The position numbers and the translations under genes were made by a program. The notes beneath the pieces were generated by a model. The model did not search any database. It saw only the letters and a list, made by a program, of their open reading frames with translations, and had not been told where the DNA came from. Shown here in pieces: positions 3,001 to 31,008 of a stretch of DNA of 64,000 nt. Source of the DNA: the human T2T-CHM13v2.0 reference genome, Homo sapiens; the NCBI GenBank assembly GCA_009914755.4, contig CP086569.2, positions 22,656,001-22,720,000 on the forward strand, read 5' to 3'. Each line of letters starts with the position of its first letter. Within the stretch, counting starts at the first letter, position 1.

Positions 3001-3036
3001 GAAAAAAAAAGCCACCCTTCTAGAAAGAAAAGGAGC

Positions 3037-3082
<46 letters not shown>

Positions 3083-6000
3083 TTTCCCAGTGTTTCACTG
3101 TCCGGCAGCTAACCCAGGGAGAGACATTAGCTGTCCTGCCTGCAGAGCCTATTGAATTTACCTAGAATTCAGTTCCCAGCTGAGCAGTTCCTTCAAGTTC
3201 TGAGGGGGCACTCCTCAATCGTCTTGGGATTTCATCCTGGGAAATAGAGTGTGAGCAGCAATAAGGTAAGACAGAGGTGAGAATACAATCATACAACCTC
3301 TTGAGGGGAAGGTTGGGTCCTGCAACTTCACCTGCAAAACAAAAATGAAAACAGATGACATAAAAGGTGCTTCCAACTCCATCCTTGCATTCCCTTAATT
3401 ACACAAGCCGTCCACATCTTGGCTTGGTGTTCAGGTGGGAGTACTCCAACGTGCAAGCCACATTTGGAGTCCAAAATGAGGCCATCCTGTCAAATTCCCC
3501 ATTTGAGGGCTTTCATACCCAGAGCCAAATGGGAGTGGAATGTGTTGATGTTGGGTGGGATATGGCCTCCAGACTTGCCTCTTCTTTTCTTTACTTCCAT
3601 GTTCCTCATTGGCCTAGGGTTTCCTGGGTCTGGCTCAATGACTTCCGCACTAAATGTTTCCAACTTCATGGACAACATGCCTGATGGGAATCCATTGTGT
3701 GAGTGTGTTCTTCTTAACACTGTCACGTTTTAATGATTGGGCTGCTTTGACACTTTTAAAACCATAAATTCTCACTACAGCCACAAACAAGGAAACTCTT
3801 TGTTTTCTCACTTCTATCAAATGGCTGCATGGTTCCTGTAGGATGAGAGGCAGGCAGCCATGACTGGCTTTTGCCTGGTAATCTAGCCCCTGTTTTATTT
3901 CATCTACATGGCCTTCTCATTGTGGAGGGGTTCTTTCTTTGGAACTGGATGGGACTGCGTCTCATCACAGATTATTCAGCTGAAAGTGATTGCAGAGAGC
4001 AAGAGGCACTTCAGGTAGGCTGGCTGCACTCCAGTTTGTGGGTTGTTCTCTTATTGTGGTTGCTGAGGTTGTTTGCACTTAGCAGGAGGTTGTTGGGTCC
4101 TCTCACAGAAATCATTGAACATTGCTTGGACTCCAGCACAAGGCAGCTCATTCTCTTAGGCAAGCTTTGATTTCTCTTTGCTCTCATAGGAAATCCTCAG
4201 TGCCCCTCAACAGCACTACTGGACATCCCTATCACCACAGATGGCCTCTGAGACATTGTCTCAACCTCATCTGCACCTGTGAGAGGCCAGTCCGAGGGGT
4301 GAGAACACTGATCCACTTTGGACTTGCCTTTGTCCTGGTTCCTGCCTTTCCCAGAGAGCCCCTGTGAGGCCCAGGATGAAGGGAGGCAGTGAAGTCAACA
4401 GCCTGGCCATATTTCGACACTACAACTGCCTCTGGGGTCTCAAGTATGATTCTATCTCCCAAAGAACCCTCAACAACACACCACACTATATTCCAATCAC
4501 CATGGACCTGAGTCTTGCACACAGCTTCTTTCAAGAATGGAGTCAGAAAAGCAGTTATCAGCAACGACCTCACAGTCGTGAATTGCCTTGACCTCCAGCG
4601 TGACCCGACCACAGAGATGACTCGAAGGGGCCCTAAGATCAAGACTTTCAGGGTTTCCCAGTGGGTTTTCGTAGGCGGACTTTTTCCCGATATCAGGCAG
4701 GCTCTGCCGGTACCATTTTCCTCTGCATAGGCAGGCTGACATCTCTGACAGCCTAGCGTGGGCGCCTCCATCGCGAATGCGCATGCGCTAGTCTTAGGGC
4801 ACGGGGCCTGAGCTGTGAGCTGTGGTTAACATCCCAATAAATGCCTCCGTTCCCTAGCCACAAGTCCCTGTGGCTCGACTTAGAAGGACACCTTGGTGGA
4901 GGTGCGTCGGCAGTGGTCTCTTGCCTGCCTTATCTGTGGGATCCATGGGATAGTCCCATGTTCCTAAGAGAGGTCAGACGTGAGCAGCCTGAAGAAACCT
5001 CAAGCAGAGCCCAAGGAATAAATCACGAAATCCCTAAGGATCTAAAAGGATCTGCATGATGCCTCAGACCTGCCTAGATGTTGTAGGGGTGAGTCTTTTC
5101 GAAATTTGCCCTACTGTGATTTATTGGTACAGCCCTCCTGTATTCCCAAAGATGCTGTCTCCCAAGTGGGGCTGTCTGCAGAACCATGCAGCCTCAGAAG
5201 CTACTGGGCTGTGTGATTCTGTGAGAGTGTTGCAATTGTTGGGTATCTGCCTGTGTGTGGCTGTGTGTGTGTGTGTGGGTGGGTGTATCTGTGTCTCTGT
5301 CTCTGTCTGTATGCCTATAAGTGGAGTCCGCTTAAAAAAATGTGGCTAACACGCTGCAGAGCTGCTTTTTGTATTTTTTGTTTTTTTATTCCTCCAAGCT
5401 TTTGGTGGGCTGTCTCTGTGGCTCTGCTTGGGCTATATGGCTCCGTGTTTTTTATTCATTCTTCTGTGGGTCATGAACTTATAGTGAATTGGGAGTTTGA
5501 CTGAGACCAGCTGGGATCCAAATCACCTCCCCCTGCAAAAGAAGCCACTCTTCCAGAAAGAAGAGGAGCACACCACACCCATAAACAGACATCTAGTGTT
5601 TCATTGTCCTGTGGCCAACCCAAGGAGGGATACTAGCATTCCTGTCTGCAGACCCCATTGAATTTACATCACATTTGGTTATCGGTTGAGTAGGAGCTTC
5701 ACATCATGAGGGGACAGTCCTCTGTCATCTTCGTTCTGGGACAGAGAGTGTGAACAGCAATAAGGTCAGTTAGGTGTGTGGATACAATCTGGTGAGGGGT
5801 GGATGGGGTCCTGCACCTTCACCTGAAAAATGGTGAAGACAGTTGACACAGAAGTTACTTCCAACTGCATCCTTTCATTCTCTTAACTGTACAAGCAGTC
5901 CACATGATGACCCAGTGTTGAGGTGGGAGTACTTCAACGTGCATGGAACATGTGCAGTGCAAACTGGGACCATCCTGGCAAACTCCTGATTTGAGGGCTT

Positions 6001-9000
6001 TGATAACAGGAGCCAGATGAAAGCAAGATGGATAGTTGCTGGGTGGGATGTGACCCCTACACTTGCCTCTTCTTTTCCTTACTTTCATGATCCTCATCCT
6101 GGATCTGGTCAATACCGTCCACACTAAATATTTCCTAGTTCACAGAGGACGACCCTCATGAGAATCAATTGTGTGAGTGTTTCCTTCTAAACACCGTCAT
6201 GTTTTAATGACTGCACATCTGAGATATTTTAAAACTGTAAATTCCTGTTAAAGCCACCAACAAGAAAACTCTTATTCTCCCACTTCTATGTGAGGGCTGC
6301 ATGATTCCTGTAGGATGAAAAGCAGGTAGCCATGTCTGGCTTTTGCCTGGTAATTTAGACTCTGTTTCATTGTGCTTGCATGTCCTTTCTCACTGAGGAG
6401 TGGGTGTTTCATTGGGCTGTTGCTGTATGGGACTGTCTCTCACCACAGATCCTTGCTGGAGATTTCAGAGAGCAAAAGAGACTTCAGGTAGGCTGACTTC
6501 ACTCCAGGTTGTGGGTTGTGGTCTCGTCTTGGGGATTGAGGTTGTCTGCACTTTGCAGATGGATTTGGGTCCTCTGAAAGTAGTGTTTCAGCATTGCTTG
6601 GACTTCAACACAATTCAGCTGATTCTCTCACAGGAGCTTTGATTTTTTCTCATTTTCATGGAGAGTACACATTGCCCCTAAAGAGTATTACTGCACACCC
6701 TTTTCAGGCTTACGGTCACAACAAATGGCCTCTGAGACACTGTCTCAACCTCATCTGCACCCATGAGAGGCCAGTTCGTGGTGTGAGAACACTACTCCAC
6801 CATATACTTGCCTTTGTCGTGGTTCCTGCCTTTCCCAGAGAGCACCTGTGAGGCCCAGGATGAAGGCAGGCAGTGACGTCCAGGGCACAGACATGTTTTG
6901 TTGACACCTGCCTCTGCAGTCTCAGGTATGATTCTATCACCCAGAGACCCCTCAACTACTCACCAGACTATATTCCAATTGTTATGGGACCCGATTCCTG
7001 CTCACAGCCTCTTTCAGGAATGGAGTTAGAAGTGCAGTTTCCAGTGACCAGGCCACAGTCTCAAATTGGCTCCACCTCTAGTGAAACCCGACCAAGAAGA
7101 TGGCTTGAAAAAGACCTAAGGGTGAGAATTTTAGGGTCTCTCAGTGGGTTATCTCAGGCAGCCATTTTCCCAGCACCAGGCCAGCTCTGCCTGTACCATT
7201 TTTCTCTGCTTAGACAGGCTGACAGCTCTGAGAGCTGGACCCCCAAGCCTGTGACACGAATGCAAATGTGCTAGTGTCCTGTCACCAGGCCAGAGTTGTG
7301 AGCTCTGGCAAGCGTCACAATGAATGACAGTGTTGCCTAGCAACAAGTCCCTGGGGCTTGGTGGAGAAGGAGGCCACCGTAGATGTGTACTGGAAGTACA
7401 CTTTCACCTGTCTTCTCTGTGGGATCCACAGGATGTTCTGGTTATCCTAGGAGAGGGCAGACACAAGCCATCATGAAGAAAGATCAAACATAGCCCCAGG
7501 AATAATCTGCAAAATCCCTAAGGATCCAGAAGAATCTGCAGGATGCCTCAGGCCTCCCTAGACATAGTAGGGTTGAGTCTTTTTGAAACTTGCCCCCACT
7601 GTGATTTCTTGGTACAGCCCACCTGTGTTGCCTGGGGTTGTTCTCTCCCAGGTGGGGATTCCTGCAGAACCATGCAGCCTCAGGACCTGCAGGGCTGTAG
7701 TTTCTGTGGGAGTGTTGTGAGTTTGGTTGTCTCTGTGTGTGTGGCTTTGTGTGTGTGTGTATGTGTGTGTGTGCATTTAAGTGGAGTCTGTGCAAGTGAA
7801 TTAGGCTAATGCACTGCAGCACTTTTTTTTGTTTCCCATCCTTTTGGTGGCCTGTGTGTCTTTGCTTGGGCTGTAGGTCCCTGTGTTCTTTATTTTTATG
7901 TGGATCAAGAATCCACAGTGATTTGGGAGGCTGGCTCTTACCTGCCATGGTCCAAATCTCCTACACATGCAAAAAAAACAGCCACTCTACTAGAAAGAAG
8001 AGGAGCACACCTCACCCAATAATGTACATCTTTGACTGTTTGACCTGTGGCCAACCCAGGGAGAGACACCAGCAGTTCTGTTGGCAGGGCCCCTTGAATT
8101 TACCTGTAATTCAGTTCACAATAGAGCAAGTGTTTCCCATTGTGAGGGAGCACTCCTCAATTATCTTGGGAATTCATCGTGGGACATTCAGTGTGAGCAG
8201 CAATAAGGTCAAATAGGAGTGAGGATACAATCTGGTGAAGTTTCAGTGCGGACCCACACCTTCACCTGCAAAAAAGCTGAAGACTGATGGTGCAGAAGTT
8301 ACTTCCAACAGCATCCCCACATTTTCTTAATTGCACAAGCCATCCACATCATGGCCTGGAGTTCAGGTGGGAGTACTTCTCCATGCAGGGAACGTTTGGA
8401 CTGCATACTCAACAATGCTGGCAAACTCCCAATTTCAGGGCTGTCATACCCAGAACTAAATGGATGTGGTATGGATTGATGCTGGGTGGGATGTGGCCTT
8501 CACACTTGACTCCTCTTCTCCTGACTTTCATTTTCCCTGTTGGCCTAGGGTTTCTTGGATCTGCCTAAATGTCTACCACAGTAAATTTCCCAGTTCATGG
8601 AGGATGACCCTCATTTGAATCCACTGTGTGAGTGTTTCCTTCTAAACACTGTCAAGTTTTAATGACTGGGCAGCTTTGATACTTTTAAAGCTGTAAATAT
8701 CAGTTACAGCTGCCAACAAGGAAACTCTTATTCTCCCACTTCTTTCAGAGGGCTGCAAGATTCCTGTATGATGAAAAGCAGGCAGCCGTGTCTGGCATTG
8801 CCTGGTAATCTAGCCTCTGTTTCAATTCATCTGCAAGTCCTTTCTCATTGTGGAGGGGCTCTTTCATTGGGTTGTTGCTGCATTGCATTGCCTCTCGCCC
8901 CAGATCTCTTGGCTGCCAGGGATTTCAGGGAGCAAAAGGGACTTGGGGTAGGCTGGCTGCACTCCAGGTTGTGGGCCATTGTCTCATTGTGGGGGCTGAG

Positions 9001-12000
9001 ATTGTTTGAACTTTGCAGGAGGCTTTGGGTCCTCTTACAGGAATCATTGAGTATTGTGTGGACTCCAGCACAAGGCATCTCATTCTCTTAAGGGAGCCTT
9101 GATTTTTCTTTGCTTTCATGGAGAATCCACAGTGATACACAACAGCACTACTAGACACCCTTTTCAGGCTTTCCATTGCCACAGACGGCCTCTGATACAC
9201 TGTCTCAATCTCATCTGCATCCGTGAGAGGCAAGTCCAATGAGTGAGAACACTGCTGCACCTTGGGCTTGCCTTTGTCATGGTTCATGCATTTCCCAGAG
9301 AGCCCCTGTGAGGCCCAGGATGAAGGGAGACTGGGAGGGCATGAGCCCAGCCATCTTCCTCTGATACCCACCTCTGGGGTCTCAGGTATGATTCTATTGC
9401 TCAAAGAACTCACAACAAACAACAGACTATATTCTGATCCACAGTGTACCTGATTCTTGCACACAACTTCTTTCAAGAATGGAGACAGAAGTGCCGTTTC
9501 CAGTGACCACTTCAGAGTGTCGAAAAGCCTCCTACTTCAGCAAAAGCTCACCACCAAGACAGCCAGAAGTGTCTCTGAGATTGAGACATTTAGGGTCCCA
9601 CAGATGGTTTTTGCAGGCAGCCTTTTTTCCGATACCAGGCTGGCTCTGCCTGTCCCAGTTTCCTCTGCTTAGGGAGACTGACAGCTCTAACAGCATGGTG
9701 CCCAAGCCTGCCACATGAGTGCACATATGCTAGCCTCAGAGCACCAGGACTGCCTGTGAGCTCTGGTTAGCCTCACAGTGAATTTAACCATTGCTTAGCG
9801 ACCAGTCCCTGTGGCTTGGTGGAGAAAAAGTCATCCATGGAGGTCTGTCAGTGGAAGACTCTCACCTGTCTTCTCTGTGGGATCCAGGGGACAGTCCCAT
9901 GATCCTAGGGGAGGACATACATCAGCCAGCCTGAAGAAACATCAAGCAGAGCTCCAGGAAGAACCTACAATATATCTAATGTTCCAAAAGTTTCCACAGG
10001 ACTCCTCAGGCCTGCCTAGACATTGTAGGGGTGAGTCTTTTTGAAACTTGCTGCACTGTGATTTCTAGGTACAGCCTGCCTGTGTTCTCCAGGTTACTTA
10101 CTCCCATGTGGGGCTTCCTGCAGAACTATGCAGCCTCAGGAAATGCTGGGCTGCCTGTTTCTGTGGAATTGTTGAGAATGTTTGATGTCTGTGTGTGTGC
10201 TGGACATTGTTTGTGTGTGTGTGTGTGCTGGACATTGTTTGTGTGTGTGTGTGTGTGTGACTGTAAATGGAGTCTGCTTAAAGGAACATGGCTAACGCAC
10301 TTCAGTGCTTCATTTCTTTGAGTCACACAACCTTTTGTTGGCCTGTCTGTGTGGCTGTGCTTGGGCTGCTGGTACCTGTGTTCTTTACTTTTCTGTGGAT
10401 CATGAATCCACAGTGAATTGGGAGGCAGGCAGAGACTCGCTGGCATACAAATCACCTCCCTTTGCAAAACAAAAAACAAAAAAAAAAAAACACCGGACAC
10501 AGCACAGTACACCAAAAAACAGACATCTCCCAGTGTTTCATTGTCCTTTGGCAAACTCAGTAAGAGACATTAGCAGTCCTGTCCACAGGGCTCCTTTTAT
10601 TTACCTCGAATTCAGTTCACAGGAGAGCAGGTGCTTCATATCATGAGGGTACACTCCTCCATCATGTTGGGATTTCATCCTGGGACATAGAGTGTGAGCA
10701 GCAATAAGATAAGATAGGGGTAAGGATACAATCTGAAGGGTGGATGGGGTCCCACAACTTCACCTGCAAAAAAAATGAAGACAGATGACACAGAAAGTGC
10801 TTCCAACTCCATCACCATATTCCTTTAATTGCACAACCAGTCCACACCATGGCTCTGTATTCAGGTGGGAGTACCCCAACCTGCAAGAAACATTTGGAGT
10901 GCAAATTAAGGCCATTTTAGAAAACTGACAATTTGAGGGCTTTCATGCCAGGAGACAAATAGGAGTGGAATGGATTGATGCTGGGTGTGATGTGGCCTGC
11001 AGATTCGGCCTCTTCTTCTCCTGACTTCCATATTTGTTATCAGCCTAGGGTTTCCTGCATCTGGCTCAAGGACTTCCACACTAATCATTTCCCAGTCACA
11101 GAGAACGACCGTTACTGGAACCCATTGCATGAGTGTTTCCCTCTGAACACTGTCAGGTTTTAATTACTGGGCTGCTTTGATACTTTCAAAACCATAAATT
11201 CCCATTACATCTGCTCACAAGGAAACTCTTGTTCTCAAGCTTCTATTCGAGGGCTTCATGACCCCTGCAGGATGAGAAGCAGGTAGTCATATTTGGCTTC
11301 TGCTTGGTAATCTAGCCTCTATTTCATTTCATCTGCATAGGCTTTTCATTGTGGAGGGGTTCTTTCATTGGGCTGTTGCTAGATAAAGCTGTCTCTCACC
11401 ACAGATTATTTAGATGTCAGGGATTGCAGAGAGCAAAAGGGACTTTGGGTAGGCTGTCTGCACTCCAGATTGTGGGTCATTGTCTCCTTTTGGGGGTTGA
11501 AGTTGTTTGCACTTTTCAGGAGGATTTTGGGTCCTCTGACAGGAATCAGTGAACATTGATTAGTCTCCAGCACACGGCAGCTCATCCTCCCAGGTGAACT
11601 TTGATTTTTCTTTGCTGTCATGGGGAATCCACAGTGCTCCTCATCAGCAGTTCTGTACACCCTTATCATGCTTGCCATCAACACATATCGCCTCTGAGAC
11701 AGGGTATCAACCTCATCTGCACCAGTGAGATGTCAATCCGAGGTGTAACAAAACTGTTCCACAGTGGACTTGCCTTTATCATGGCTCCTGCCTTTCCCAG
11801 AGAGCTTCTGCAAGACCCACAATGAAGAGAGGCAGTGATGGCAAGAGCCCAGCCATCTTTCTCTGACACCCGCCTCTGGGGTCTCAGGTATGATTCTATC
11901 ACCCAAAGAACCCTCAACAACCCATCAGATTATATTTCATTTCCTAGCGGACCCAATTCTTACACAAAGTTTCTTTCAGCAACGGAGTCAGAAGATCAGT

Positions 12001-15000
12001 TTCCAGTGACTACCTCACAGTATCGAAACGTCTTCTCCTCCAGCACAACCCGACCACAGAGATGGCACGAATGGTTCCTGAGTTTGAGACTTTTAGGGTC
12101 TTGAAGTGGGTTTTGACAGCCAGCCTTTTTCACAATAACAGGTCACTTCTGCCTGTACCATTTTCCTCTGCTTAGGCAGCCTGACAGCTCTGATGGCCTG
12201 GCACCTGAGCCTGCCTCACAAATGCACATGCACTACTCTTGGGGCACCAGGCCTCATTGTGAGCTCTGGCTAGAGTCACAACATATGTCACTGCTGCCTA
12301 GGGACAAGTCTCTGCAGCTTGGCAGAGAAGGAGAACTCCGTGGAAGTGCATCAGCAGTGGACTCTCGCCTGTCTTCTCAGTGGGACACAGGGCATATTCC
12401 CATGATCCTTGGAGAGGGCAGATGTGAACCAGCCTGAAGAAACATGAAGCACAGTCCCTTCAATAAATTGTGAAATCCCTAAGGATCCAAAAGGATCTAC
12501 AGGATTCTTCAGGCCTGCCTAGTTTTTGTAGTGGTGAATCTTTTTGAAACTTGCTCCACTGAGATTTCTAGGTAGAGCCCACCTGTGTCCCTGTGATCAT
12601 TCTCTCCCAGGTATGGCTTCCTGCAGAACCACACAGCCTCAGGATCTACCAGGCTGTGTGTTTCCATAGAATTGTTGCTAGTGTTGGATGTCTGTGTGTG
12701 TATATTGCATTGTGTGTTTGTGAGTGCTTGTGTGTGTGTGTTTGCCTGTAAGCGGAGACTTCTTAAAGGAATGTGTCTAATGCACTTCAGCACTTTTTTA
12801 TTGTTGTTGAGTCTCCAAACATTTTGGTTGCTTTTCTGCGTGGCTCTGCTTGGGCTGTGTGGCTCCATGTCATTCATTTTTCTGTGGGTCTGAATCCACA
12901 GTGAACTGGGAGGTGGGCAAAGACCCACCGGCTTTCAAATCACCTCCCCCTGCAAAAAAACAAAACAAAACAAAACAAAACAAACCTCTCTTCTAGAAAG
13001 AAGAGGAGCCCCTACCACATGAAAAACAGACATCTCCCAGGTTTTCATTGTCCTGTGGCCAACCCAGGGAGAAACCCTCACAGTCCTGTCTGCAGTGCCC
13101 CTTGAATTTACATTGAATTCGGTTCCCAGGAGAGCAGGTGTTTCACATTGTGAGGGGACACTTCTCCATCATCTTGGGATTTCATTCTGGGACATACAGT
13201 GTGAGATGCAATCAGTTCAGAAAGGGGTGAAGATACAGACTGGTGAAGGGTGGATGGGTTCCTGCAACTTCAACTGCAAAAAGATTGAAGACAGGTGTCA
13301 CAGAAGGTGCTTCCAACACCATCTCTACATTCAATTAATTACACAAGCAGTCCACACTATGGCCTGGTGTTCACGTGAGAGTATTCCAATGTACAAGGAA
13401 CATTTGGAGTGCAAATTGGGGCCATCCTGGTACACTCCTGATTTGAGGGCTTTCATACCCAAAGCCAAATTGGAATGGAATGGATTGATGCTGGGTGAGA
13501 TATGACCTCCACACTTGCCTCTTCTTTTCTGGACTTCCATGTTTCTCATTGACCTAGGGTTTCCTGGTTATGGCTCAAAGACTTCCACAGTAAACTTTTT
13601 CCAGTTCACAGAGAATGATCCTCATGGGAATCCACTGTGTGAGAGTTTCCTTCTAAACACTGTCATTTTTAATGACTGGGCAGATTTGATACTTTTAAAA
13701 CTGTAAATTCCCATTACATCCACCAGCAAGGGAACTCTTGTTCTCTCACTTCTATCAGAGTGCTGCATGATTTCTGCAGGATGAAAAGCAGGTAGCCGTG
13801 TTTGATTTTTGCCTCATAATCTAGTGTATTTTTCACCTCATCTGCATGTTCTTTTCACTGTGGAGGGGCTGGCTCCTTCATTGGGCTGTTGCTGCTTGGG
13901 ACTGCCTCTCCCCACAGAGTAGTTAGCTGCCAGGAATTTCAGACAGCAAAACGGACTTCGGGTATGTCAGCTGCCCTTCATGTTGTGGGATGTTGTCTCG
14001 TTGTGGGGGCTGAGGTTGTTTACATTTTGCAGGAGTCTTTTTGGTCCTCTGACAGGAGTCATTGAACATTGCTTGTACTCTGCCATAATGCATCTCTTTC
14101 TCTCAGGCAAGCCTTGATTTTTCTTTGCTTTCAAGGGGAATACACAGTGCCCCTCAACAACACTACTGGACACCCTTTCAGACTTTGCACTGCCACAGAC
14201 ATCTTCTGAGATACTTTCTTAACCTCATGTGAACCTGCAAGAAGCCAGTCCGAGGTGTGAGAACACTGCTCCACCTTGGACTTGCCTTTGTTGTGGTTTC
14301 TGCCTCTCCCAAAGAGCCCCTGTGAGGCTCAGGATGAAGGGTGGCAGTGAGGTCAAGAGCCTGACCATCTTTTGCTGGCACCCACCTCTGGGATCTCAGA
14401 TGTTTCTATCACCGAAAGTACCTTCAGAAACACACCAGACTATATTCCAATCCCCATGGGACCCTATTCTTGCCCACAGCCTCTTTGGAGAATAAAGTCA
14501 GAAGAGCAGTTTCCAGTGACCACCTCACAGTCTGAAAATGCCTCCTCCTCCAGTGGGACCAGACCACAGAGATGGCCCCAAGGGGCCCTGTCGTGGAGAA
14601 ATTTAGTGTCCCACAGTGGGTATTCGCAGGCAGCCTTTATTGCAACACCAGGCCAGTTTGGTCTGCAGTATTTTCCTGTGCTTAGGCAGGCTGACAGTTC
14701 TGACAGCCAGACATCCTTGCCTGCCTCAGGACTGCGCATGTGCTAGACTCAGGGAACGAGGCCTGATTATGAGCCCTGGCTTGTGTCAAAACAATTGTCA
14801 TCGTTGCCTAACTACAAGGCCCTTGGCTTGGCGGCAAAGGAGGCCTCTGTGTAGGTGCAATGGCAGTGGGCTCTCGCCTCTTTTCTGTTGGATTCTCCAG
14901 ATAGTCCCATGATCCCAAGAGAGGGCAGATGTGAGCTAGCCTAAAGCAACCTCAAGCACAACCCCAGGAATAAATTGTGAAATCTGTAAGAATCCAAAAG

Positions 15001-15193
15001 TATCTGCAGGATTCCTCAGGCCTGTATAGCTGTTGTGGGGGTGAGTCTTTTTTAAACTTGCCCCACTGTGATTTCTAGATACAGCCTGCCTGTGTTCCAA
15101 CAGGTTACTCTCTCCCAGGTGGGGCTTTCGGCAGAACCATGCGTCCTCAGTAGCTGCTGGGCTGTGTGCCTGTGGGAGGCTTGCGAGTGTTGG

Positions 15194-15237
<44 letters not shown>

Positions 15238-15575
15238 ATCTGCCTCTAAGTGGAGTCTGTTTAAAGGAATGAGGCTGACACACTTAAGCGCTTCTTCTTT
15301 TTTTTTTTTTTCAGTCTCCCAACCTAGTGTTTTCCTGTCTGTATGGCTCTGCTTGGGCTGCAGGGCTTTGTTTTCTTTATTTTTCTGTGGATCATGAATC
15401 CACAGATAATTGGGAGGTGTGCCATGAACCACCGGCTTTCAAATCAGCTCTGCCTGCAAAATATAAACAAACAAACAAACAAATAAATGCCACACGAAAA
15501 AACAGGCATCTCCCAGTGTTTCATTGTTCTGCAGCCAACCCAGGGAGAAACATTAGCAATCTTTTCCACAGGGAG
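1..15575 (+). repeat. Macrosatellite tandem array, + orientation: 6 complete units plus 1 truncated unit, each about 2.45-2.51 kb
   Basis: The unit-start motif (ggatcc acag gatagtcccatga ... gccagcctgaagaaatgtcaag ... ctaaggatc) recurs at 1, 2451, 4938, 7422, 9880, 12383 and 14890. Collinear similarity across whole units was judged by eye; no percent identity was computed. CpG is depleted, at about 20 CpG per unit. Confidence 0.9.
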
Positions 15576-16348
15576 ATACACAAAGCCACACGCACATGCA
15601 GACATCAAACACTCACAACACTCTCACAGAAAAAGACAGCCCAGCATCTCCTGAGGCTGCCTGGTACTGCAGGAAGCTTCACTTGGGAGACAGCAACCCT
15701 GGGGAACCCATGTGGGCTGTGCTTAGAAAACAGAGTGGGGCAATTTTCAAAAAGACTCACCCCTACAACATCTAGGTAGAACTGAGGCATCTTGAAGATC
15801 CTTTTGGACCCTTAGGGATTCCCCGGTTAATTCCTGCAGCACTTCTTGAAGTTTCCTCAGGCTGGCTCACGTCAGCCTTCTCCTAGGATCATGGGATTAT
15901 CCTGAGGATCCCACAAAGAAGACAAGTGAGAGTCTCCCACCGACCTACCTCCATGGAGGTTTCCATCTCCGCCACACTGCAGGGACTTGTCTCTAGGCAA
16001 CGGTGGCATTCATTGTGACGCCATCCAGAGCTTACAGCTCAGGCCTCCTGCCCTGAGACTAGCACATGCAAATTCGTGAGGCAAGGTTGGGTGCCCAGCT
16101 GTCAGAGATTTCTGCCTGCCTAAACAGAGGTAAATAGTACAGGCAGAGCCGGCCTGGTATCAGAAAAAAGCCTGACTGTGATAATTCACTGAGGGACACT
16201 AAAAGTCTCAACCTTAGAGCTCCCTCCGGTTGTCTCCATGGTCTGGCCTTACTTCAGCAGGACACATTTTGAGACTATGAGGTGGATGCTGGAAACTGCT
16301 TTTCTGACTCCTTGCCCAAAAGAGGCTGTGTGTTAAGAATCAGGTCCT

Positions 16349-16993
16349 ATTGAGAGAAGCTGGCTGGGCTTCTGGGTCCAGTGGGGACTTGGAGAACTTT
16401 TCTCTCTAGCTAAATGATTGTAAACACACCAATCAGCACTCTGTAAAAATGGACCAATCACCACTCTGTAAAACAGACCCATCGGCACTCTGTAAAATGG
16501 ACCAATCAGCAGAACGTGGGTGGGGCCAAATAAGGGAATAAAAGCTGGCCACCTGAGCTAGCAGTGGCAACCCGGGGGGTTCCTCCCATGGTGTGGAGGG
16601 TTCCTTCTTTCGCTCTTCACAATAAATCTTGCTGCTGCTCAGCCTTTGGGTCTGCACTACTTTTATGAGCTGTAACACTGACTGAAAATGTCTGTGGCTT
16701 TACTCCTGAAGTCAGCGAGACCATGAACCCACCAGGAGGAACAAGCAACTCTGGAGGCGCCACCTTTAAGAGCTGTAACACTCACTGGGAAGGTCTGCGG
16801 ATTCACTACTGATGTCAAGTGGGACCATGAACCCACCAGAAGGAAGAAACTCTGGACACATCTGAACATCTGAAGGAACAAACTCTGGACACACCATCTT
16901 TAAGAACTACAACACTCACCCCAAGGGTCCACAGCTTCATTCTTGAAGTCAGCAAGACTAAGAACCCACCAGAAGGAACAAATTCTGGTCACA
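16349..16993 (+). mobile_element. Solo LTR12 (HERV9 LTR), 5'-short form, inserted in the satellite
   Basis: Diagnostic LTR12 sequence is present: ggacttggagaacttttctctctagctaaatgattgtaaacacaccaatcagcactctgtaaaa, then tggaccaatcagcag..gtgggtggggccaaataagggaataaaagctggccac, then ..ctttcgctcttcacaataaatcttgctgctgctca. This is followed by the three 'gagctgtaacactcac..gaaggtctgc..' R/U5-type subrepeats. Satellite sequence resumes on both sides (caggtcc | LTR | ccatgggg attggaata). Confidence 0.8.
16437..16513 (+). promoter_or_regulatory. Three CCAAT boxes in the LTR12 U3 region (candidate NF-Y sites), with the LTR poly(A) signal AATAAA at 16629-16634
   Basis: ccaatcag occurs at 16437, 16462 and 16509. 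caataaatcttgc is at 16628-16640. Confidence 0.45.
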
Positions 16994-19900
16994 CCATGGG
17001 GATTGGAATATAGTCTGGTGAGTTTCTGTGGGTTTTTGGGTGATGGAATCATAACTGAGACCCCAGAGGCGGGTGTCTGCAAAAGATGGCTGGGCTCTTG
17101 ACCTCATCCTCCCACTGCCCACTGCCTCCCTTCATCCTGGCCTTATAAGGGCTCCCAGAGAAAGGCTGGAACCATGACAAAAGTAGGTCCAAGTTGGAGC
17201 AGTGTTCTCACACCTCAAACTGGCCTCTCAAAGGTGCAAACAAGGTTGAGACAGTGTCTCAGAGGCTGTCTGTGACAATTGCAAGCCTGGAATGGTGTCC
17301 AGCAGTGCTGTTGAGGGGCAATGTGGACCCCCCATGAAAGCAAAGAAAACTCAAAGCTTGCCTGAGAGAATGAACTGACTAGTGTCAGAGACGCAGCAAT
17401 ATTCAAAGGTATATGTCAGAAGACCCAAAATCCTCTGTCAAAGTGCAAATAAATTCAGCCCCCAAAATGAGAACACAAGCCACAACCTGGAACATAGCCA
17501 GCCTACCTAAAGTCCTTCTTGCTCCCTGAAATTCCTGGCATCCAAAAGATGAGTGATGATAGGCAGTCCCATTCAGCAAGAACACAATGAAAGATCCACT
17601 CAACAATGAGAAGACCATGCAAATAAAAGTGAAACAGAGTCTAGATTACCAGGTAAAAGCCAAACACAGCTGTCTGCTTCTCATCCTACAGGAATCATGA
17701 AGCCCTCTGATAGAAGTGAAAGAACAAGAGTTTCCTTGTTGACAGCTGTCACGGCAATTTATGGTTTTAAATTATCAATGCTGCCCAGTCATTAAAAAGT
17801 GACAGGGTTTAGAAGGAAACACTCATGTGATGGATTCCCATGAGGGTCATTCTCTGAGAAGTGGGAAAGATTTAGTGTGGAAGCCATTGTGCAAGACCCA
17901 GGAAACCCTAGGCTGACGAGGAACCTGGAAGTCAAGAAAAGAAGAGGTCACCCCTCCCAGCATTAACCCATTCCATCCCCATTCCAACCTATTTGGCTAT
18001 GGGTGTGAAAGCCATAAATCAGGAGTTTGTCAGGATGGGCCCAATTTGCACTCCAAATACTCCCTGAACATTGGATTACTTCCACCTGAAAAATAGGCCG
18101 TGATGGGGACCGCTTGCACAATTAGCAGAATGGGGGGATGGATTTGGAAGCAACTTCAGTGTCATCTGTCTTCATTTTTTTTTTTGCAGTTGAAATTGTG
18201 GGACCCATCCACTCCTCACTAGATTGTATCCTCAACCCTATCTGACCTTATTGCTGCTCACACTCTGTGTCCCAGGATGAAATCTCAAGATGATGGAGGA
18301 GTGCCCCCTTTGACCTGAAGCACCTGCTCAGCTAGGAACCAAATTCAAGGTAAGTTTCAGAGTTACTGGGGAAAGGACTGCTAGTGTCTCTCATTGGGTT
18401 GACCACAGGACAATGAAACAGTGGGAGATGTCTGTTTTCTAGTGTTGTGTGTTCCTCATCTTTCTAGAAGAGTGCTTTTTGTTCATTTGCTTGTTTGTTT
18501 GTTTTGCAGGGGGAGGTGACTTGGACGCTGGCAAGTCTCGACCCGCCCCCCAATATACTGGGGATTCATGATCCACAGAAAAATAGAGAACACAGCCCTG
18601 CGACTAAAGCAAAGCCACACAGACAAGCCATCAAAATGTTGAGAGACTCAAATAAAGAAGCACTGAAATGTGTTAGCCACATTCTTTTAAGCAGACTCCA
18701 TTTGCAGGAACACACACACACAAAGACACAATACCACACAAACACATGCAGAAATCTGACACTCATAACACTCCCACAGAAACACACAGCCCGGCAGCTT
18801 CTGAGGCTGTGTGTTTCTGTAGGAAGCCCCACCTTGGAGAGAGCAACCCCAGGGAACAGAGGCAGGCTCTAACTAAAAATATCATGGGGGCAAGTTTCAT
18901 AAAGACTCACTCCTAGAACTCCTGGGCAGGCCTAAGGAATCCTGCAGATGATTTTGGATCCACAGGGATTTTGTAGTTTATTCCTGGGGCTCTGCTTGAC
19001 ATTTCTTCAGGCTCACTCACATCTTTCTCTCCTAGGATCATGGGATTATTCCATGTATCCCACAGAGAAGACAGGTGAGAGTCCACCAGCGCACCTCCAC
19101 AGAGGTCTCTTTCTCCACAAGCTGCAGGGACTTGTCTCTTGCCAACAGTGACATTCCTTGTGACACTTGCCAGAACTCAAAATCAGGCATGGTGCCCTGA
19201 GTCTAGCTCATGCACATTCGTGAGGCAGGCTCTGGCATCCGGCTGTCAGAGCTGTCAGCCTGACTAAGCAGAGGAAAATGCTGCAAGCAGAGCCGGCCTT
19301 GTATCAGGAAAAAGGATGCCTATGAAAACCCACTGCGAGACCCTAAAAGTCTCAAACTCAGGGCCTCTTTGGGCCATCTCCATGGTCAGGTCCCACTGGA
19401 GGAGGAGGTGTTTCAAGACTGTGAGGTGGTCGCTGGAAACTGCTCTTCTGACTCTATTCCTGAAAGAGGCTGTGTGCAAGAATCAGGTCCCATGGAGATT
19501 GGAATAGAGTCTCTTGTGTTGTTGGGGTTCTTTGGGTGATAGAATTATACTTGAAACCCCAGAGGTGGGCATCACTAAAAGATGCCCGAGCTTGACCTCA
19601 TGGCATCCCTTCATCCTGGGTCTCACAGGGGCTGTCTGGAAAAGTCAGGAACCATCACAGAGGAAAGTCCAAGGTGAAGCAGTTGTCTCACACCACAGAC
19701 TGGTCTCTCCTTGGTGCAGATGAGGTTGACACAGTGACTCAGAGGCTGTCTGTGGTGATAGTAAGCCTGAAAATTGTGTTCAGCAGTGCTGTAGTGCTGT
19801 TAAGGGTCATTGTAGATTTTTCATGAAAGCAAGGAAAAAACAAGGCTTGCCTGAGGAAATGAGCTGCCTTGTGCTGGAGTCCAAACTTGGACTGAACTCT

Positions 19901-22900
19901 TATGGGTAAAGATAAGGTAGAGACCATGTCTCAGAGGTCATCTTTGATGATGCCAAGCCTGAAAATGATATCCAGTAGAGCTGTTGAAGGACACTGTAGA
20001 TTGTCCATAAAAGCAAAGAAAAATCAAGGTTCACCTGATAGAATGAGCTGCATTGACCTGGAGTTTAAGCAATGTTCAATGCTTCCTGTTAGAGGTCCCA
20101 AAAGCCTCCTGCAAATTGCAAACAACCTCAGCCCCCATAACGAGACAACGACTCAAAACTTGGAGCACCGCCAGACTCCTCAAAGTCCCTTTTGCTCTTT
20201 GAAATCTCTGGAAGCAAAATAATCTTTGGCAAGAGGCAGTCCCATCCAGCCACAGCCCAATGAAAGAACCCCCACTCAACGAGAAGACCATGTAGATGAA
20301 AAAAATCAGAGACTAGATTGCCAGGCAAAAGCCAGACAGGGCTGCCTGCTTCTCATCCTACAGGAATCATGCGGAATGCCAAGAGAAGTGAAAAAAAAAA
20401 GAGTTTCCTTGTTGGCAGCTGTAAGGGAATTTACAGTTTTAAAGGTATCAAAGCTGCCCAGTCATTAAATTGTGACAGTGTTTAGAAGGAAACACTCAGG
20501 CAATGGATTCCCATTAGGGTCATTCTCTGTGAACTGAGAAACGTTTACTGTGTCATTGAGCCAGACACAGGAAAACCTGCACCAACAAGAAACATGGACA
20601 TCAGAGAAAGAAGAGTCAAGTGTGGAGGCCATATCCCACCAAGCATCAATCCATTTCATTCCCATTTGGCTCCCGGTATGAAAGCCCTCAAATTGGGAGT
20701 TTGCCAAGATGACCCCAATTTGCACTCCAAATGTTCTTGCCCATTGGAGTACTTTCACCTGAACACCATGCTATGGTGTGGACTACTTGTGCAATTAAGG
20801 GAATGTTGGGATGGAGTTGGAAGTATCTTCTGTGTCATCTGTCTTCATTTTTTTGCAGGTGAAGTTGTGGGATCTCATCCAATTCCCACCAGATTGTATC
20901 CTCACCCCTGTCTGACCTTATTGCTGCTCACACTCTATGTCCCAAAATGAAAACCCAAGTTGATGGAGTATTGCCCCCTCATGATGTGAAGAAACTGCTT
21001 GGCTGGGACCTGAATTTGAGGTAAATTCAAGGGCCCTATAGACAGGACTGCTAGTGTCTCTCCCTGAATTGGCTGCAGGACAGTGAAACACTCAGAGATG
21101 TCTGTTTTTTCATGTGGTATGCTCCCCTTTTTTCTAAGAGTGGCTTTCTTTTGGAGTGGGAGGTGAGTGTGACGCTGGTGGGTCTCAGCCTGTGTCCCAA
21201 TTCTCTGGGGATTTATGATCCACAGAAGACTAAAGAACATGGAACTCCACAGCCCAAGCAGTGCTGCACAGACAGGCCACCAAAAAGTTGGGAGACTCAA
21301 AAAAAATAGCTAAAATGTGTTAGCCACATTCCTTTAAGTATACTCCACTTATATTCTAACACGCACACACACACACACACACACATGCAGACATCCAATA
21401 CCCTCAATACTTTCACAGAAACACACAGGCTGGCAGCTCCTGAGGCTGTGTGGTTCTGCAGGAAGCCCCATTTGGGAGAGAGCAACCTCGAGGAACACAG
21501 CTGCTGTATGTGGATATCACAGTAGGGCAAGTTTCAAAAAGACTCACCCCTACAAAGTCTAAACAGGTTTGAGGAATTCTGCAGATTGTTTTGTATTCTT
21601 AGGGATTTCACAGTTTATTCCTGGGGCTCTGTTTGATGTTATTTCTGGCTGCCTCATGTCTTCCCTCTCCTAGGATCATGGGACTGTACCATGGATACAA
21701 CAGAGAAGACAGGCCAGAATCCACTGCTGACACACCTCCAGGGAAACCTCTTTATCTGCCAAGCTGCAGGGATTTGTCACTGGCAAAGGTGACATTCATT
21801 GTGAAGCTAGCCAGAGCTCGCAATCAGGCCTGATGCCCTGAGACTAGGGCACGCACATTAATGAGGCAGGCTCTGGCCCTGGCTCTCAGACCTGTCAGCC
21901 TGCCTAAGCAGAGGAAAATGGCAGAGGCAGAGTCGGTCTGGTATCGGGAAAAAAGCTGCCTGTGAAACCCACTGAAGGACCCTAAAAGTCTCAACTTTGG
22001 GGGTTATTCAAGCCATCTCCATGGTTGTGTCCCACTGGAGGAGGAGGTGTTTTGAGACCATGAGGTGGTCGCAGAAACTGCTCTTCTCTTCTGAGTCCGT
22101 TCCCAAAGGAGGCTGTGTGAAAGAATTAGGTCCCATAGGGATTGATATATAGTCTGGTGTGTTCTGGAGGGGTTTTTTGGGTGATAGCAGCAGACCTGAG
22201 ATCCCAGAGGTGGGTGTCAGCAAAAGATGGCCAGGCTCTTGACCTCTCTGCCTCCCTTCATCGGGGGCCTCACATAGGCTCTCTGGGAAAGGCAGGAAGC
22301 AAGACAAGGCAAGTATAAGATCAACACTGTTCTCACACCTCGAACTTGCCCCTCATGGGTGCATATGAGGATGTGACACCATCTCAGAGGCTGTCTGTGG
22401 TGACGGCAAGCCTAAAAATGGTGTCCAGTAGTGCTGTTGAGGAGCACTGTGAATTCTCCATGAAAGCAAAGAAAAATCAAAGCTCACCTGAAACAACAAG
22501 ATGCCTTTTGCCAGAGTCCAAGCAATGTTCAATGATTCCTGTCAGAGGACCCCAAAGACTCCTGCAAAGTGCAAACAACTTCAGCTCCCACAACATACAA
22601 CAATCCACAATCTGGAGTGCAGCCAGATGATGCAAAGTCCCTTCTGCTCTCTGATATCTCTGGCAGCTAAATAATTGGTGGGAAGAGGCATTCCTATCCA
22701 GCAACAGAACAATGCAAGAGCCCCTCCACTATGAGAAGGCCATACAGATGACAGGAAACAGAGGCTAGTTTACCAGGCAAAGCCAGACACAGCTGCCAGC
22801 TTGTCATCCTACAGGAATCATGCAGCACTCCAATAGAACTGGGAGAATAAGAGTTTCCTTGTTGTTGGCTGTAACAGGAGTTTATGGTTTTTAAAGTATC

Positions 22901-24981
22901 AAAGCTACCGAGTCATTAAAACATGAGAGTTTTTAGAAGAAAACACTCATGCTATGGATTCCCATGAGGGTCATTCTCATGAACTGAGAAACATTTAGTG
23001 TGGAAGCCGTTGAGCCAGACACAGGAAACCCTAGGCTGGTAAGAAACATGGAAGTCAGAAAAAGAAGAGGCAAGTGTAGAGGCCACATCCTACCCAGCAT
23101 CAATCCATTCCACTCCCATTTGGCTCTGGGTATGAAAGCTCTCATATTGGGAGTTTGCCAGGATGACCCCAATTTGCACTCCAAATGCTACTTGCACATT
23201 GAAGTACTCTCAACTGAATTCTGGGCCATGGTGTGGACTGCTTTTGCAATTAAGGGAATGTTGGGTTGGAGTTAGAAGCATCTTTTCTGTCATCTGTCTT
23301 TATTTTTATTTTTATTTTTTTGCAGGTGAAGTTGCTGGACCCCATTTTCCATTCAGCAGATTGTATCCTCACCACAGCTGACCTTATTGCTGCTCAGACT
23401 CTATGTTCCAGGATAAAATCACAAGAAGATGTAGTAGTGCCCCCTCATGATGTGAAGCATGTTCACAGCTGGGAACCAAATTCGAGGTTAATCTAAGTGG
23501 CCTTGCAGACAGATCTGCTAGTGTCTCTCCCTGCGTTGTCCTCAAGATGATGGAAACACTGAGAGATACCTGGTTTTTGGTGTGGTGTGCTACTCTTCTG
23601 GAAGAGTGGTTTTTAGTGCAGGGGGAGGTGATTTGGACGCTGGCGGGTCTTGGCCCACCTCCAAATTCACTGCGGATTCATGATCCACAGAAAAATAACA
23701 CGGAGCCATGCAGCCCAAGCATAGCCACACAGACAGGCCACCAAAATGTAGTGAGGCTAAAAACAAGAAGCACTGAAGTGTGTTAGCCCCATTCCTTTAA
23801 GCAGACTCCACTTACAGGCACACACACACACACACAATGCCACACACACTCGATGTCAAACACTCACAACATGCCCACAGAAACACACAGCATGGCAGAT
23901 CCTGAGGTTGCATAGTTCTGCAGGAGGCCCCACCTGGGAGACAGCAACCCCAGGGAACACAGGCAGGCTGTACCTAGAAATCACATTGGGGCAAGTTTCA
24001 AAGCCCATACAACTTATAGGCTGGCCTGAGGAATTCTGCAGATCCTTTGGGATCCTTAGGGATTTTGCAGTTTATTTCTGGGGCTGTGGTTGATGTTTCT
24101 TCAGGCTGACTCCCACAAGCTCTCTGACCTTGGTTGATGTTTCTTCAGGCTGGCTCACATCTGCCCTCTCATAGTATCATGGGACTATCCTGTGGAATCC
24201 ACAGAAAAGACAGGGGAGAGTCCACTGTCAATGCACCTCCAAGCAGATCTCCTTTTCTGCCAAGCCACAGGGACTTTTTGCTAGGCAACAGTGACATTCA
24301 TTGTGAGGCTAGCCAGAATTCACCATCAGGCCTGGTGCCCTGAGAATAGTACATGCACATTCTTCAGGCAGGTTCAAGAACCCAGCTGTCAGAGCTGCCA
24401 GCCTGCCTAGGCAGAAGAAAATGCACAGGCAAAGCTGGCCTCACATCGGGAAAATGGCTACCTGTGAAAACCCACTGTGACACCCTAAACGTCTTGACCT
24501 TAGGGTCCCATGGGCAGTCTCCACGGTCTCCTCCCGCTGGAGGAGTAGGCATTTCAAGACTGTTAGGTGGTCGCTGGAAACTGCTCTTCTGACTCCATTC
24601 CTGAAAGAGAATGTGTGTGTACAATACCCCAATCCCATGGGGATTGGGATATAGTCTGTTGTGTTGTTCAGTGTTCTTTGGGTGATAGAAGACCCCAGAG
24701 GCAGGTGTCAGCAAAAGCTGGCCAGACCCTTAATCTCACTGCCTCCCTTCATCCTGGGCCTCACAGGTGCTCTCCCAGATAATCAAGAACCAAAAGAAAG
24801 GCAAGTCGATGTTGGAGACATGTTCTCACACTTTGAACTGGCCTGTCATGGGTGCAGATGAGGTTAAGACAGTGTCTCAGAGGCGGTCTGTGGAGATTGC
24901 TACCCTTAGGGTATCCAGTAGTGTTGATGTAAGAGCACTGTGGATTCCTAATGACAGGAGAAAAAAATCACTTGAGAGAAT

Positions 24982-25572
24982 TGTTGGGAAACCAGCCCCA
25001 CAATGCCCCGTGGGTACCCTAAATCCAACAGAGACAAATAATTAGAAAGAGACAGAATGAGAGTTTAAAAGGCAGGTCCAGGGGACCAGAGAATTGGAGG
25101 CTTGCTCATGGCCTGGAGCTCTCAGCCACCACCCAATTTATTGCTTTACAAGCTCTTTGTTCTTAGGGCAGATCTGAGGGGTAGGAAGGGCTGAGGGAAA
25201 GGATTAATCAGTGAGGGAGAACCCGTGAGTCATTCAATAAGATGTATAGCAGTAGCAGTTTCTGTGAATTTCCTCTAGCAAAGGCGTGTGTCTAAACTAC
25301 TTAATATATTTAACTTATCAGGACTGAAATGGATGGGAGAAGGCTTCAGGAGAAGCCAAGATGTTTGATTATACTCCACTGCTTCAAGAGAGTGTTATTT
25401 CCCTGAGCAACCTGTGGCAGCCCGCTGAGCTGTTATGCTCTCTGGGCATAAGGACATGAAGGCAATAAGGAGACTTTTCTCCTCAGAGGCCACCCATGGG
25501 AGTGACTCCCCATGGGAGTCTCACACCGGAGAGATCAACTCATTTGGCATCCCAGAAACTCTCTTTCCCACA
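24982..25572 (-). mobile_element. 3' LTR (591 bp) of the HML-type provirus
   Basis: Aligns with 30111-31008 apart from the Alu. The adjacent internal sequence in provirus sense is ..gagacaaaaaagtgggaca|TGTGGGAAAG, a purine-rich polypurine-tract-like run. Confidence 0.8.
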
Positions 25573-25689
25573 TGTCCCACTTTTTTGTCTCCATTTTTTT
25601 AAATTAATAACCACCATTGCTATCATAGCTCATTCACGGTGTCTATCTACTCTCCCAAGATGCTGTCTGCATCAGTAGGTTAAAAAAAA

Positions 25690-27470: not shown

Positions 27471-27699
27471 CCAGGTCAGTGGAGTTGTTTAGTGAGTTTT
27501 ACTGGTTTCCACCTGCTTAACAAAGATGTTCATCTGAGCCATCTGATGAACTGGTGGTGCAAGGACTTTCTGAGGTCTTTTCCTTTTGCTTGAATTCTGG
27601 CTCTTGGCACCACTTAACATGTCTTGTGGGTACCCAGAGAAGAAGCTGATTCTCTCCTGGTGAGATGCAAGCAAATCCTCACCCCCAAAAAGACCCACT

Positions 27700-30110: not shown

Positions 30111-31008
<898 letters not shown>

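What the first reader, a model, noticed from the sequence alone, without database searches (positions are those of the whole stretch)
15231..15575. Orientation-switch junction lies inside a unit with no foreign spacer
The + unit runs normally to unit position ~686 (..cccagggagaaacattagcaatcttttccacaggg). It then joins directly to the reverse complement of unit position ~340 (agatacacaaagccacacgcacatgcagacatcaaacactcac..), at a GT-microsatellite region. A breakpoint at a microsatellite suggests the inversion arose by replication template switching or microhomology-mediated repair, rather than by insertion of a spacer element.
Basis: seen in the sequence. Interest (0 to 1): 0.5.

Follow-up and report, generated by a model that had tools for sequence, protein, structure and literature searches.

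The report
Strand flip inside old tandem repeat
A decayed 2.5-kb tandem repeat in a primate genome switches strand at one clean point, a fossil of an inversion or inverted duplication of part of the array; this kind of rearrangement scar is ordinary and has no sign of function.

Summary
A non-coding, CpG-depleted ~2.48-kb tandem unit runs on the + strand to base 15573 (unit position 332). From 15574 to 45040 it runs on the - strand, starting 11 positions inside the unit's terminal (GT)n tract. No foreign DNA lies between; at most 4 ambiguous bases (AGAT).

Both arms belong to one amplification burst. All 13 full units are 75-80% identical to each other. There is no +/- subfamily split, no mirror-pair signal and no neighbour signal.

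New point: the - block ends at 45040 at unit position 360, only 27 positions past where the + arm stops (p~0.02). Flipping 15574-45040 restores a continuous + array that ends in a GT tract. A simple two-break inversion is therefore the best fit, with 45040/45041 as its second junction. Divergence cannot date it.

A fold-back inverted duplication is the main rival: 337-bp spacer, 4-5 nt inverted microhomology, not significant. Template switching or microhomology repair cannot be shown, and only one of the two breakpoints lies in the microsatellite.

I could not obtain orthologous junctions, the left flank, or an independent contig across the junction. Strand switches inside tandem arrays are well known. 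Low interest.

The parts
1..15573 (+). + oriented part of the 2.48-kb tandem array: partial unit P0 (cut by the window edge), full units P1-P6, partial unit P7
   Evidence: nhmmer map; BLAST to a reference unit; MAFFT alignment
15197..15236 (+). (GT)20 microsatellite that ends unit P6. It is the last GT tract of the + arm and the inverted partner of the CA remnant at 15574
   Evidence: TRF; regex scan; sequence
15237..15573 (+). Partial unit P7 (profile 2-332). This is the 337 bp between the two inverted arms. It is ordinary unit sequence, and would be the 'spacer' under the fold-back reading
   Evidence: nhmmer 15241-15573 = profile 2-332; alignment columns 1-437
15573..15574 (.). Junction J1: + unit position 332 joined directly to the reverse complement of unit position 2465
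   Evidence: abutting nhmmer hits; sequence against consensus
15574..15607 (-). Decayed (CA)n-rich start of the - arm (AGATACACAAAGCCACACGCACATGCAGACATCA). Only ~5-9 nt of the distal GT tract are kept, against 12-50 nt in other units
   Evidence: alignment of unit 3' ends; consensus comparison
15574..45040 (-). - oriented part of the same array (units M1-M7). About 16.85 kb of array (6.8 units) plus three later insertions
   Evidence: nhmmer map; BLAST
16348..16993 (+). Later insertion in unit M1: solo LTR resembling HERV9 LTR12 (identified from memory of the consensus, not tested with a tool)
   Evidence: gap in the unit alignment; sequence with CCAATCAGC...TGTAAAA repeats and ~100-bp internal repeats
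24982..31008 (.). Later insertion in unit M4: LTR retroelement (TG...CA ends) with ~590-bp LTRs 85-88% identical, a 6-bp target duplication GAGAAT, and an Alu-like piece in the 3' LTR
31736..37677 (-). Later insertion in unit M4: endogenous retrovirus fragment with a Gag_p30 ORF at 35284-35898
   Evidence: Pfam PF02093, E 2.3e-19; gap in the unit map
45040..45041 (.). End of the - array at unit position 360 against non-array DNA. Candidate second (reciprocal) junction J2 of the inversion
   Evidence: nhmmer 42953-45040 = profile 360-2475 and nothing unit-like up to 64000 at E<=1; sequence

Best explanation
The junction is the scar of a single two-break inversion of the distal block of one tandem array.

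Before the event the 2.48-kb units all ran on the + strand and the array ended in a (GT)n tract next to the DNA now at 45041. One break fell inside a unit between positions 332 and 360, and 27 bp were lost. The other break fell in the terminal GT tract. The 17-kb block between them was rejoined the other way round; it is now 29.5 kb with later retroelement insertions. That produced J1 (15573|15574: position 332 joined to the reverse complement of position 2465) and J2 (45040|45041: reverse complement of position 360 joined to flank).

**Shown:** the anatomy, the abutting junction without foreign DNA, and the shared origin of both arms.

**Inferred:**
- that J2 is the reciprocal junction;
- that the GT tract (a Z-DNA-prone, break-prone sequence by general knowledge) was the site of the second break;
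- that sealing was by end joining with little or no microhomology.

The feature has no detectable function. The age of the flip is not fixed by the data, because an in-place inversion does not reset divergence.
For: - **Junction anatomy.** Abutting + and - alignments at 15573/15574.
- **One burst for both arms.** Pairwise identities are 75-80% for all pairs and each unit is 85-88% identical to the consensus. There is no P|M split, no diagnostic columns above random, no mirror-pair excess (0.7678 against 0.7671, p=0.40) and no adjacency effect.
- **The far end fits.** The - array ends at profile 360, against 332 for the + arm. Two independent ends would fall within 27 positions of each other in 2476 about 2% of the time. 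Flipping 15574-45040 restores ...332|360... in phase.
- **Break in the GT tract.** The - arm starts 11 positions inside the GT tract and keeps only ~5-9 nt of it.
- **Weak orientation signal.** Substitution asymmetries lean, not significantly, towards the two arms having evolved in opposite genomic orientation (lnL gain 5.07 against 2.0).
- **Precedent.** Inversions inside tandem arrays are common in the human assembly (PMC2588610).
Against: - After 45040 there is no + oriented continuation of the unit. The second break must therefore have been at the very end of the array, or the rest of the array was deleted in the same event.
- The 27-position match is a post hoc observation with p about 0.02-0.04.
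- The left end of the + array lies outside the window, so the rival palindrome model is not excluded.
- No independent contig or orthologue across J1 or J2 could be found.
Confidence: 0.45

Rival explanations
1. Fold-back (or template-switch) inverted duplication at or just after the birth of the array.

A break at unit position 332 left a 3' end. That end folded back onto the CCTG just 3' of the preceding GT tract and copied the array backwards. The 337 bp at 15237-15573 would be the uncopied loop ('spacer'). The - array would be a reverse copy of the + array, making a ~35-kb palindrome.
For: - The architecture matches the fold-back signature reported for human inverted duplications: an unduplicated spacer between non-inverted and inverted copies, and 2-8 bp of inverted microhomology at its end (PMC3907307).
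- The + end ...CAGG(G) is complementary to the unit start GTGCCTGTAAG, in the right register next to the GT tract.
- The - array is one partial unit plus 6 units. The + array visible in the window is also a partial unit, 6 units and the spacer. The arms would be exactly symmetrical if the + array starts ~1.77 kb left of the window.
Against: - Mirror pairs (P6-M1, P5-M2 and so on) are no more alike than any other pair. The copy would have to date from the first ~10% of the array's history.
- The microhomology is 4 nt if the + end was still the ancestral TCCGCAGGG. Matches this good arise at 1-6% of random positions.
- The spacer is shorter than any in the cited series (766 bp minimum).
- Two further units of the same burst (L007, L008, 81-83% to consensus) match no unit in the window. 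This hints that the array, or the family, is larger than a symmetrical palindrome allows. They could, however, come from another locus or species.
Confidence: 0.25
2. A primordial head-to-head pair of units arose first. Each member was then amplified separately into its own array.
For: This would give a junction inside units with no spacer and arms of the same family.
Against: It needs two independent bursts at the same time to give one star-like tree with no arm-specific substitutions. It does not explain why the far end of the - array falls 27 positions from the end of the + arm.
Confidence: 0.08
3. Assembly artefact, or a polymorphic or very recent inversion. The 29.5-kb block 15574-45040 would be mis-oriented in this assembly, or inverted only in this individual or species.
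For: - Flipping the block gives an almost seamless one-orientation array.
- Divergence cannot date an in-place inversion.
- No independent contig across either junction was found.
Against: - There are no Ns or gaps in the window.
- The arms are only ~76% identical, so an assembler has no repeat-driven reason to mis-join them.
- 27 bp are missing at the join and the GT tract is truncated, as expected of a real break.
- Short-read contigs from other samples match the window at 100% where they overlap it, at 3051-6500 only.
- The weak strand-asymmetry lean favours long residence in opposite orientation.
Confidence: 0.06
4. Two unrelated arrays of similar satellites happen to abut.
For: None beyond the strand switch itself.
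Against: Units of the two arms are interchangeable in every test. The junction lies inside units, not at array edges with flanking DNA.
Confidence: 0.02

Closest known systems
Inversions (strand switches) inside human satellite and large-unit tandem arrays, as catalogued by Warburton et al. 2008 (PMC2588610). Examples: GAATG, HSATII, GSATII and CER arrays, the 4p11 6-kb 'Acro' array and the 5p15.1 3.4-kb array, all flagged 'inv'
   Same: One repeat family on both sides, opposite orientation, and the switch lies within the array itself.
   Different: This array is far more decayed: ~76% between units, against mostly >95% in that catalogue's arrays of units >2 kb. It is star-like with no homogenisation. 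Here the breakpoints can be placed to the base within the unit, and a candidate reciprocal junction can be named.
Fold-back inverted duplications with an unduplicated spacer (Hermetz et al. 2014, PMC3907307)
   Same: Non-inverted copy, short unique spacer, inverted copy. A few bases of inverted microhomology sit at the end of the spacer.
   Different: The spacer is 337 bp, against 766 bp to 70 kb. The arms show no mirror-image relatedness. There is no terminal deletion or telomere context, and the microhomology is not significant.
SST1 and similar 2.5-kb macrosatellites
   Same: Unit length of about 2.5 kb in tandem (one search lists SST arrays of 2.5-kb units).
   Different: The listed SST arrays are 84-95% homogeneous. 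This array is ~76%, 47% G+C and CpG-depleted. No SST1 consensus was available, so membership was not tested. The resemblance is in unit length only.

Membership tests
Intra-array inversion of a tandem repeat | Same repeat family, with no subfamily difference, on both sides of the switch | tested here: met
   Pairwise identities. Permutation of arm labels ranks 1076/1716, with 3 diagnostic columns against 2.7 for random splits.
Intra-array inversion of a tandem repeat | Opposite strand orientation with the junction inside units and no foreign DNA | tested here: met
   nhmmer hits abut at 15573/15574: profile 332 (+) and 2465 (-). At most 4 ambiguous bases.
Intra-array inversion of a tandem repeat | A reciprocal second junction whose unit phase complements the first | tested here: inconclusive
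   The - block ends at profile 360, 27 positions from 332 (p~0.02). What follows is non-array DNA, not the expected + oriented continuation.
Fold-back inverted duplication | The inverted arm is a reverse copy of the adjacent non-inverted arm (mirror-image relatedness) | tested here: not met
   Mirror pairs average 0.7678 identity against 0.7671 for all assignments, p=0.40. This is compatible only if the copy was made while all units were still near-identical.
Fold-back inverted duplication | Unduplicated spacer between the arms | tested here: met
   15237-15573, 337 bp, lies between the GT tract at 15197-15236 and its inverted remnant at 15574.
Fold-back inverted duplication | [quoted passage not shown] | tested here: inconclusive
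   CAGG/CCTG, 4 nt (5 nt only after a CpG decay). 1-6% of random ends do as well.
Replication template switching (FoSTeS/MMBIR type) | Microhomology at junctions together with templated insertions or several clustered junctions | tested here: not met
   There is a single clean junction, no templated insertion, and no significant microhomology. Decay could have erased short signals.
SST1 macrosatellite | Sequence match to the SST1 consensus | not testable with these tools
   No eukaryotic repeat library was available. Rfam found nothing in the window. Only unit length is shared.

The most novel reading that the evidence does not exclude
The two arms are the halves of one ~35-kb perfect palindrome: 6.8 units each, with the + array starting at unit position ~360 about 1.8 kb left of the window, flanked by the reverse complement of 45041 onward. 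It would have been made in a single fold-back event during the burst that created the array, and would be a germline fossil of breakage/fold-back amplification in an early primate.
Probability: 0.2. Interest if true: 0.35.

Novelty: new member of a known kind. Interest (0 to 1): 0.15.

Why it matters
It matters little beyond annotation. The junction shows that this decayed macrosatellite was rearranged once, cleanly, with one break in its GT microsatellite. The pair of junctions at 15573/15574 and 45040/45041 gives a ready marker for dating the event across primate assemblies.

If the palindrome reading proved right, the locus would be a rare, well-preserved germline example of fold-back amplification.

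The array itself is the more unusual property: about 14 units that all diverged equally, with no later homogenisation. That could interest people who study how macrosatellites die.

Tried and rejected
- **Coding or RNA function of the unit: rejected.** No Pfam hits for the long ORFs in the array. No Rfam family in the window. Conservation is uniform at ~0.72-0.82 along the unit, with no exon-like block. CpG is depleted throughout.
- **Independent contigs across the junction: none found.** Exact-protein look-ups gave nothing for ORFs spanning or next to J1 (15327-15779 with V or M start, 15487-15654, 15605-15790) or at the left edge (207-617 with V or M start, 128-307). The gene caller behind that collection appears to keep mainly ATG-start ORFs of about 80 aa or more.
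- **Exact DNA scans of metagenome contigs: 0 hits.** Tried a left-edge 48-mer and the 28-mer junction.
- **Protein search with concatenated translations around the junction: nothing.**
- **Protein search with the 179-aa ORF of unit P2.** It gave L006, L007, L008 and L009. These helped with species and family size but not with the junction. L009 is a low-coverage contig, apparently noisy or chimeric, and was not used.
- **Mirror symmetry, arm subfamilies, neighbour similarity: all negative.**
- **Strand-asymmetry dating: not significant.**
- **Inversion by recombination between oppositely oriented microsatellites: rejected.** The CA-rich motif of the unit, expanded to (AC)21 in P2 at 3040-3082, lies ~75 nt upstream of the + breakpoint, not at it.
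- **The unit's internal inverted repeat as the cause: rejected.** The repeat is profile ~293-495 against the reverse complement of 1659-1857. The junction partner is position 2465, not the mate of that repeat.
- **Naming the repeat from the literature: not achieved.** No array in Warburton's tables matches a 2.5-kb unit at ~76% identity.

Full report
**What the window is.** The DNA is non-coding and CpG-depleted, with CpG observed/expected mostly 0.07-0.25. It carries Alu-like matches, an endogenous retrovirus with a Gag_p30 ORF, and a solo LTR at 16348-16993. From memory of the consensus I take that LTR to be of the HERV9 LTR12 type. The source is therefore a catarrhine primate. Rfam finds no RNA family in the window.

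**The repeat.** Self-BLAST shows a tandem unit of about 2.5 kb whose copies are only ~75% identical. That is too decayed for TRF, which reports only the (GT)n tract that ends each unit. I cut 15 units, aligned them with MAFFT and built a 2476-position profile; position 1 is the first base after the GT tract. The nhmmer map is as follows.
- + orientation from window 2 to 15573: P0 (cut by the window edge), P1-P6, and a partial P7 at 15241-15573 = profile 2-332.
- - orientation from 15574 (profile 2465) to 45040 (profile 360): M1-M7.
- Three later insertions interrupt the - array: the LTR at 16348-16993, an LTR element at 24982-31008, and an ERV fragment at 31736-37677.
- The LTR element has a 6-bp target duplication GAGAAT and LTRs 85-88% identical.
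- Nothing unit-like follows 45040, even at E<=1.

**The observation.** It is confirmed. The + and - alignments abut at 15573|15574. The text reads ...TTTTCCACAGGG|AGATACACAAAGCCACACGCACATGCAGACATC....
- The - arm begins 11 profile positions inside the distal GT tract and keeps only about 5-9 nt of it, against 12-50 nt in other units.
- AGAT is either decayed CA repeat or a 4-nt filler. There is no foreign spacer.
- The + side break at position 332 is in ordinary unit sequence, so only one of the two breakpoints is 'at a microsatellite'.

**Are the arms one array?** Yes.
- Every unit is 85-88% identical to the consensus and 75-80% to every other unit.
- K2P distance to the consensus at non-CpG sites is 0.12-0.15.
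- Exhaustive relabelling of the 13 full units shows no +/- split. Within-minus-between identity is -0.0006, rank 1076 of 1716.
- Diagnostic columns number 3, against 2.7 for random splits.
- Mirror-image pairs average 0.7678 identity against 0.7671 for all assignments (p=0.40). Neighbours are no more alike than non-neighbours (all).
- The tree is a star: one burst of amplification and no homogenisation since.
- Conservation along the unit is flat, so nothing in it looks selected.
- The LTR element inside M4 has LTRs that are 12-15% diverged, so the array is older than that insertion.

The + arm stops at profile 332 and the far end of the - block stops at profile 360. Two unrelated ends would fall within 27 positions of each other about 2% of the time; it is about 4% if a match to either junction coordinate is allowed. 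Turning 15574-45040 around gives a continuous + array reading ...332|360..., with 27 bp missing. That array ends in a GT tract next to 45041. This is what a plain two-break inversion leaves: one break inside a unit with a small loss, and one break in the terminal GT tract. On this model 45040|45041 is the reciprocal junction.

The weakness is that no + oriented continuation follows 45040. The second break must have been at the very edge of the array, or the remainder was lost. An array bounded by GT tracts is plausible if the first duplication arose by exchange between two GT tracts, but that is inference.

**The main rival.** The same text fits a fold-back inverted duplication.
- There is a 337-bp uncopied spacer (15237-15573) between a GT tract and its inverted remnant.
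- The + end ...CAGG is complementary to the unit start GTGCCTGTAAG immediately next to the GT tract.
- That is the signature reported for human inverted duplications: a spacer of 766 bp to 70 kb and 2-8 bp of inverted microhomology (PMC3907307).
- The unit counts would make a perfect palindrome if the + array starts ~1.77 kb left of the window.

Against it:
- Mirror pairs show no extra similarity.
- The + end was probably TCCGCAGGG originally; five units now read TG and five read CA at that CpG. That leaves 4 nt of homology.
- 1-6% of random ends do as well, depending on the tolerance allowed.
- Two further units of the same burst, L007 and L008, match no unit in the window. They are 81-83% identical to the consensus and 73-77% to every window unit. 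The family is therefore larger than a symmetric palindrome needs, although they might come from another locus.

**Dating.** An in-place inversion does not reset divergence, so the star tree says nothing about its age. I compared complementary substitution classes in the two arms. A model with asymmetry tied to the genomic strand fits slightly better than one tied to unit orientation (lnL gain 5.07 against 2.0, six parameters each). That is the direction expected if the arms have long been in opposite orientation, but it is not significant.

**Orthologues and independent support.**
- Short contigs from five sequencing or metagenome samples match the window over 3051-6500: four at 100% and one at 99.9%.
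- A contig from paediatric Crohn's biopsy metagenomes, hence human DNA (PRJEB21933; PMC5769311), is 93.8% identical to unit P2 and ~76% to all other units.
- Either the window comes from a species at about Old-World-monkey distance from human, or that contig is a human paralogue.
- If that contig is an orthologue, unit P2 was already an individual, diverged unit at that split.
- No contig across J1, J2 or the left edge could be found. The junction therefore rests on this assembly alone.
- Mis-orientation of the block cannot be excluded, but it is unlikely. There are no Ns, the arms are only 76% alike, and both joins show losses typical of real breaks.

**Comparison with what is known.** Strand switches within tandem arrays are common. 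Warburton et al. flag inversions in GAATG, HSATII, GSATII and CER arrays and in the 4p11 and 5p15.1 large-unit arrays (PMC2588610). This locus is one more case, in an unusually decayed array that I could not match to any named family. Break-proneness of (GT)n tracts is general knowledge and was not tested here.

**Verdict.** The mechanism cannot be called from the junction. The best model is a simple inversion whose second junction is at 45040/45041. A fold-back duplication at the birth of the array is a live alternative that 5 kb of upstream sequence would settle. This is an ordinary structural fossil of low interest.

Noticed in passing
window 1-45040 (array as a whole): All ~14 units are equally diverged: a star tree, ~76% pairwise, K2P 0.12-0.15 to consensus. 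There is no neighbour effect, so the macrosatellite was born in one burst and never homogenised afterwards. No match to the two Alu probe sequences tried lies inside array sequence proper; the one Alu-like match within the array's span (30624) sits in the inserted LTR element.
   Followed up: partly
L006 (ENA ERR2045130, PRJEB21933) against window 4246-5313: A contig from human gut-biopsy metagenomes is 93.8% identical to unit P2 only. This suggests that the window is from a species ~6% diverged from human (Old-World-monkey distance), or that human carries a paralogous copy.
   Followed up: partly
L007 (2363 bp) and L008 (2235 bp): Two more units of the same family, 81-83% identical to the consensus and 73-77% to every window unit. 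More units therefore exist outside the window: further left, at another locus, or in another species.
   Followed up: partly
unit profile ~293-495 against reverse complement of ~1659-1857 (e.g. window 668-860, 6947-7153, 14431-14621): Each unit contains a weak internal inverted repeat of ~200 bp, probably two old repeat fragments in opposite orientation. Both position 332 and position 360 fall inside its left copy.
   Followed up: no
window 3040-3082: An (AC)21 tract on the + strand of unit P2, of opposite polarity to the unit's own (GT)n. It expanded from a CA-rich motif (GCACACCACAC) that all units carry. Short-read contigs from other samples end here.
   Followed up: partly
window 18711-21355 (M2) and 38285-40406 (M5): M2 carries a ~185-bp internal tandem duplication (profile 1303-1487). 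M5 lacks profile ~744-1075.
   Followed up: no
window 24982-31008: Complete-looking LTR element with TG...CA ends, ~590-bp LTRs 85-88% identical and a 6-bp target duplication GAGAAT. An Alu-like insertion sits in the 3' LTR around 30460-30750.
   Followed up: partly
window 31736-37677, especially 34201-34291: ERV fragment with a Gag_p30 ORF (35284-35898, - strand). It contains a 91-bp piece similar to array unit positions 813-904. The origin of that piece inside the insertion is unexplained.
   Followed up: no
window 60705-63386: A separate tandem repeat with a period of ~547 bp, about 5 copies, 82-92% identical, in AT-rich DNA.
   Followed up: no
window 47211-47259 and 49176-49268: A perfect (TA)24 tract, which is self-complementary, and a (TCC)31 tract, both in a 31-34% G+C stretch right of the array.
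   Followed up: no
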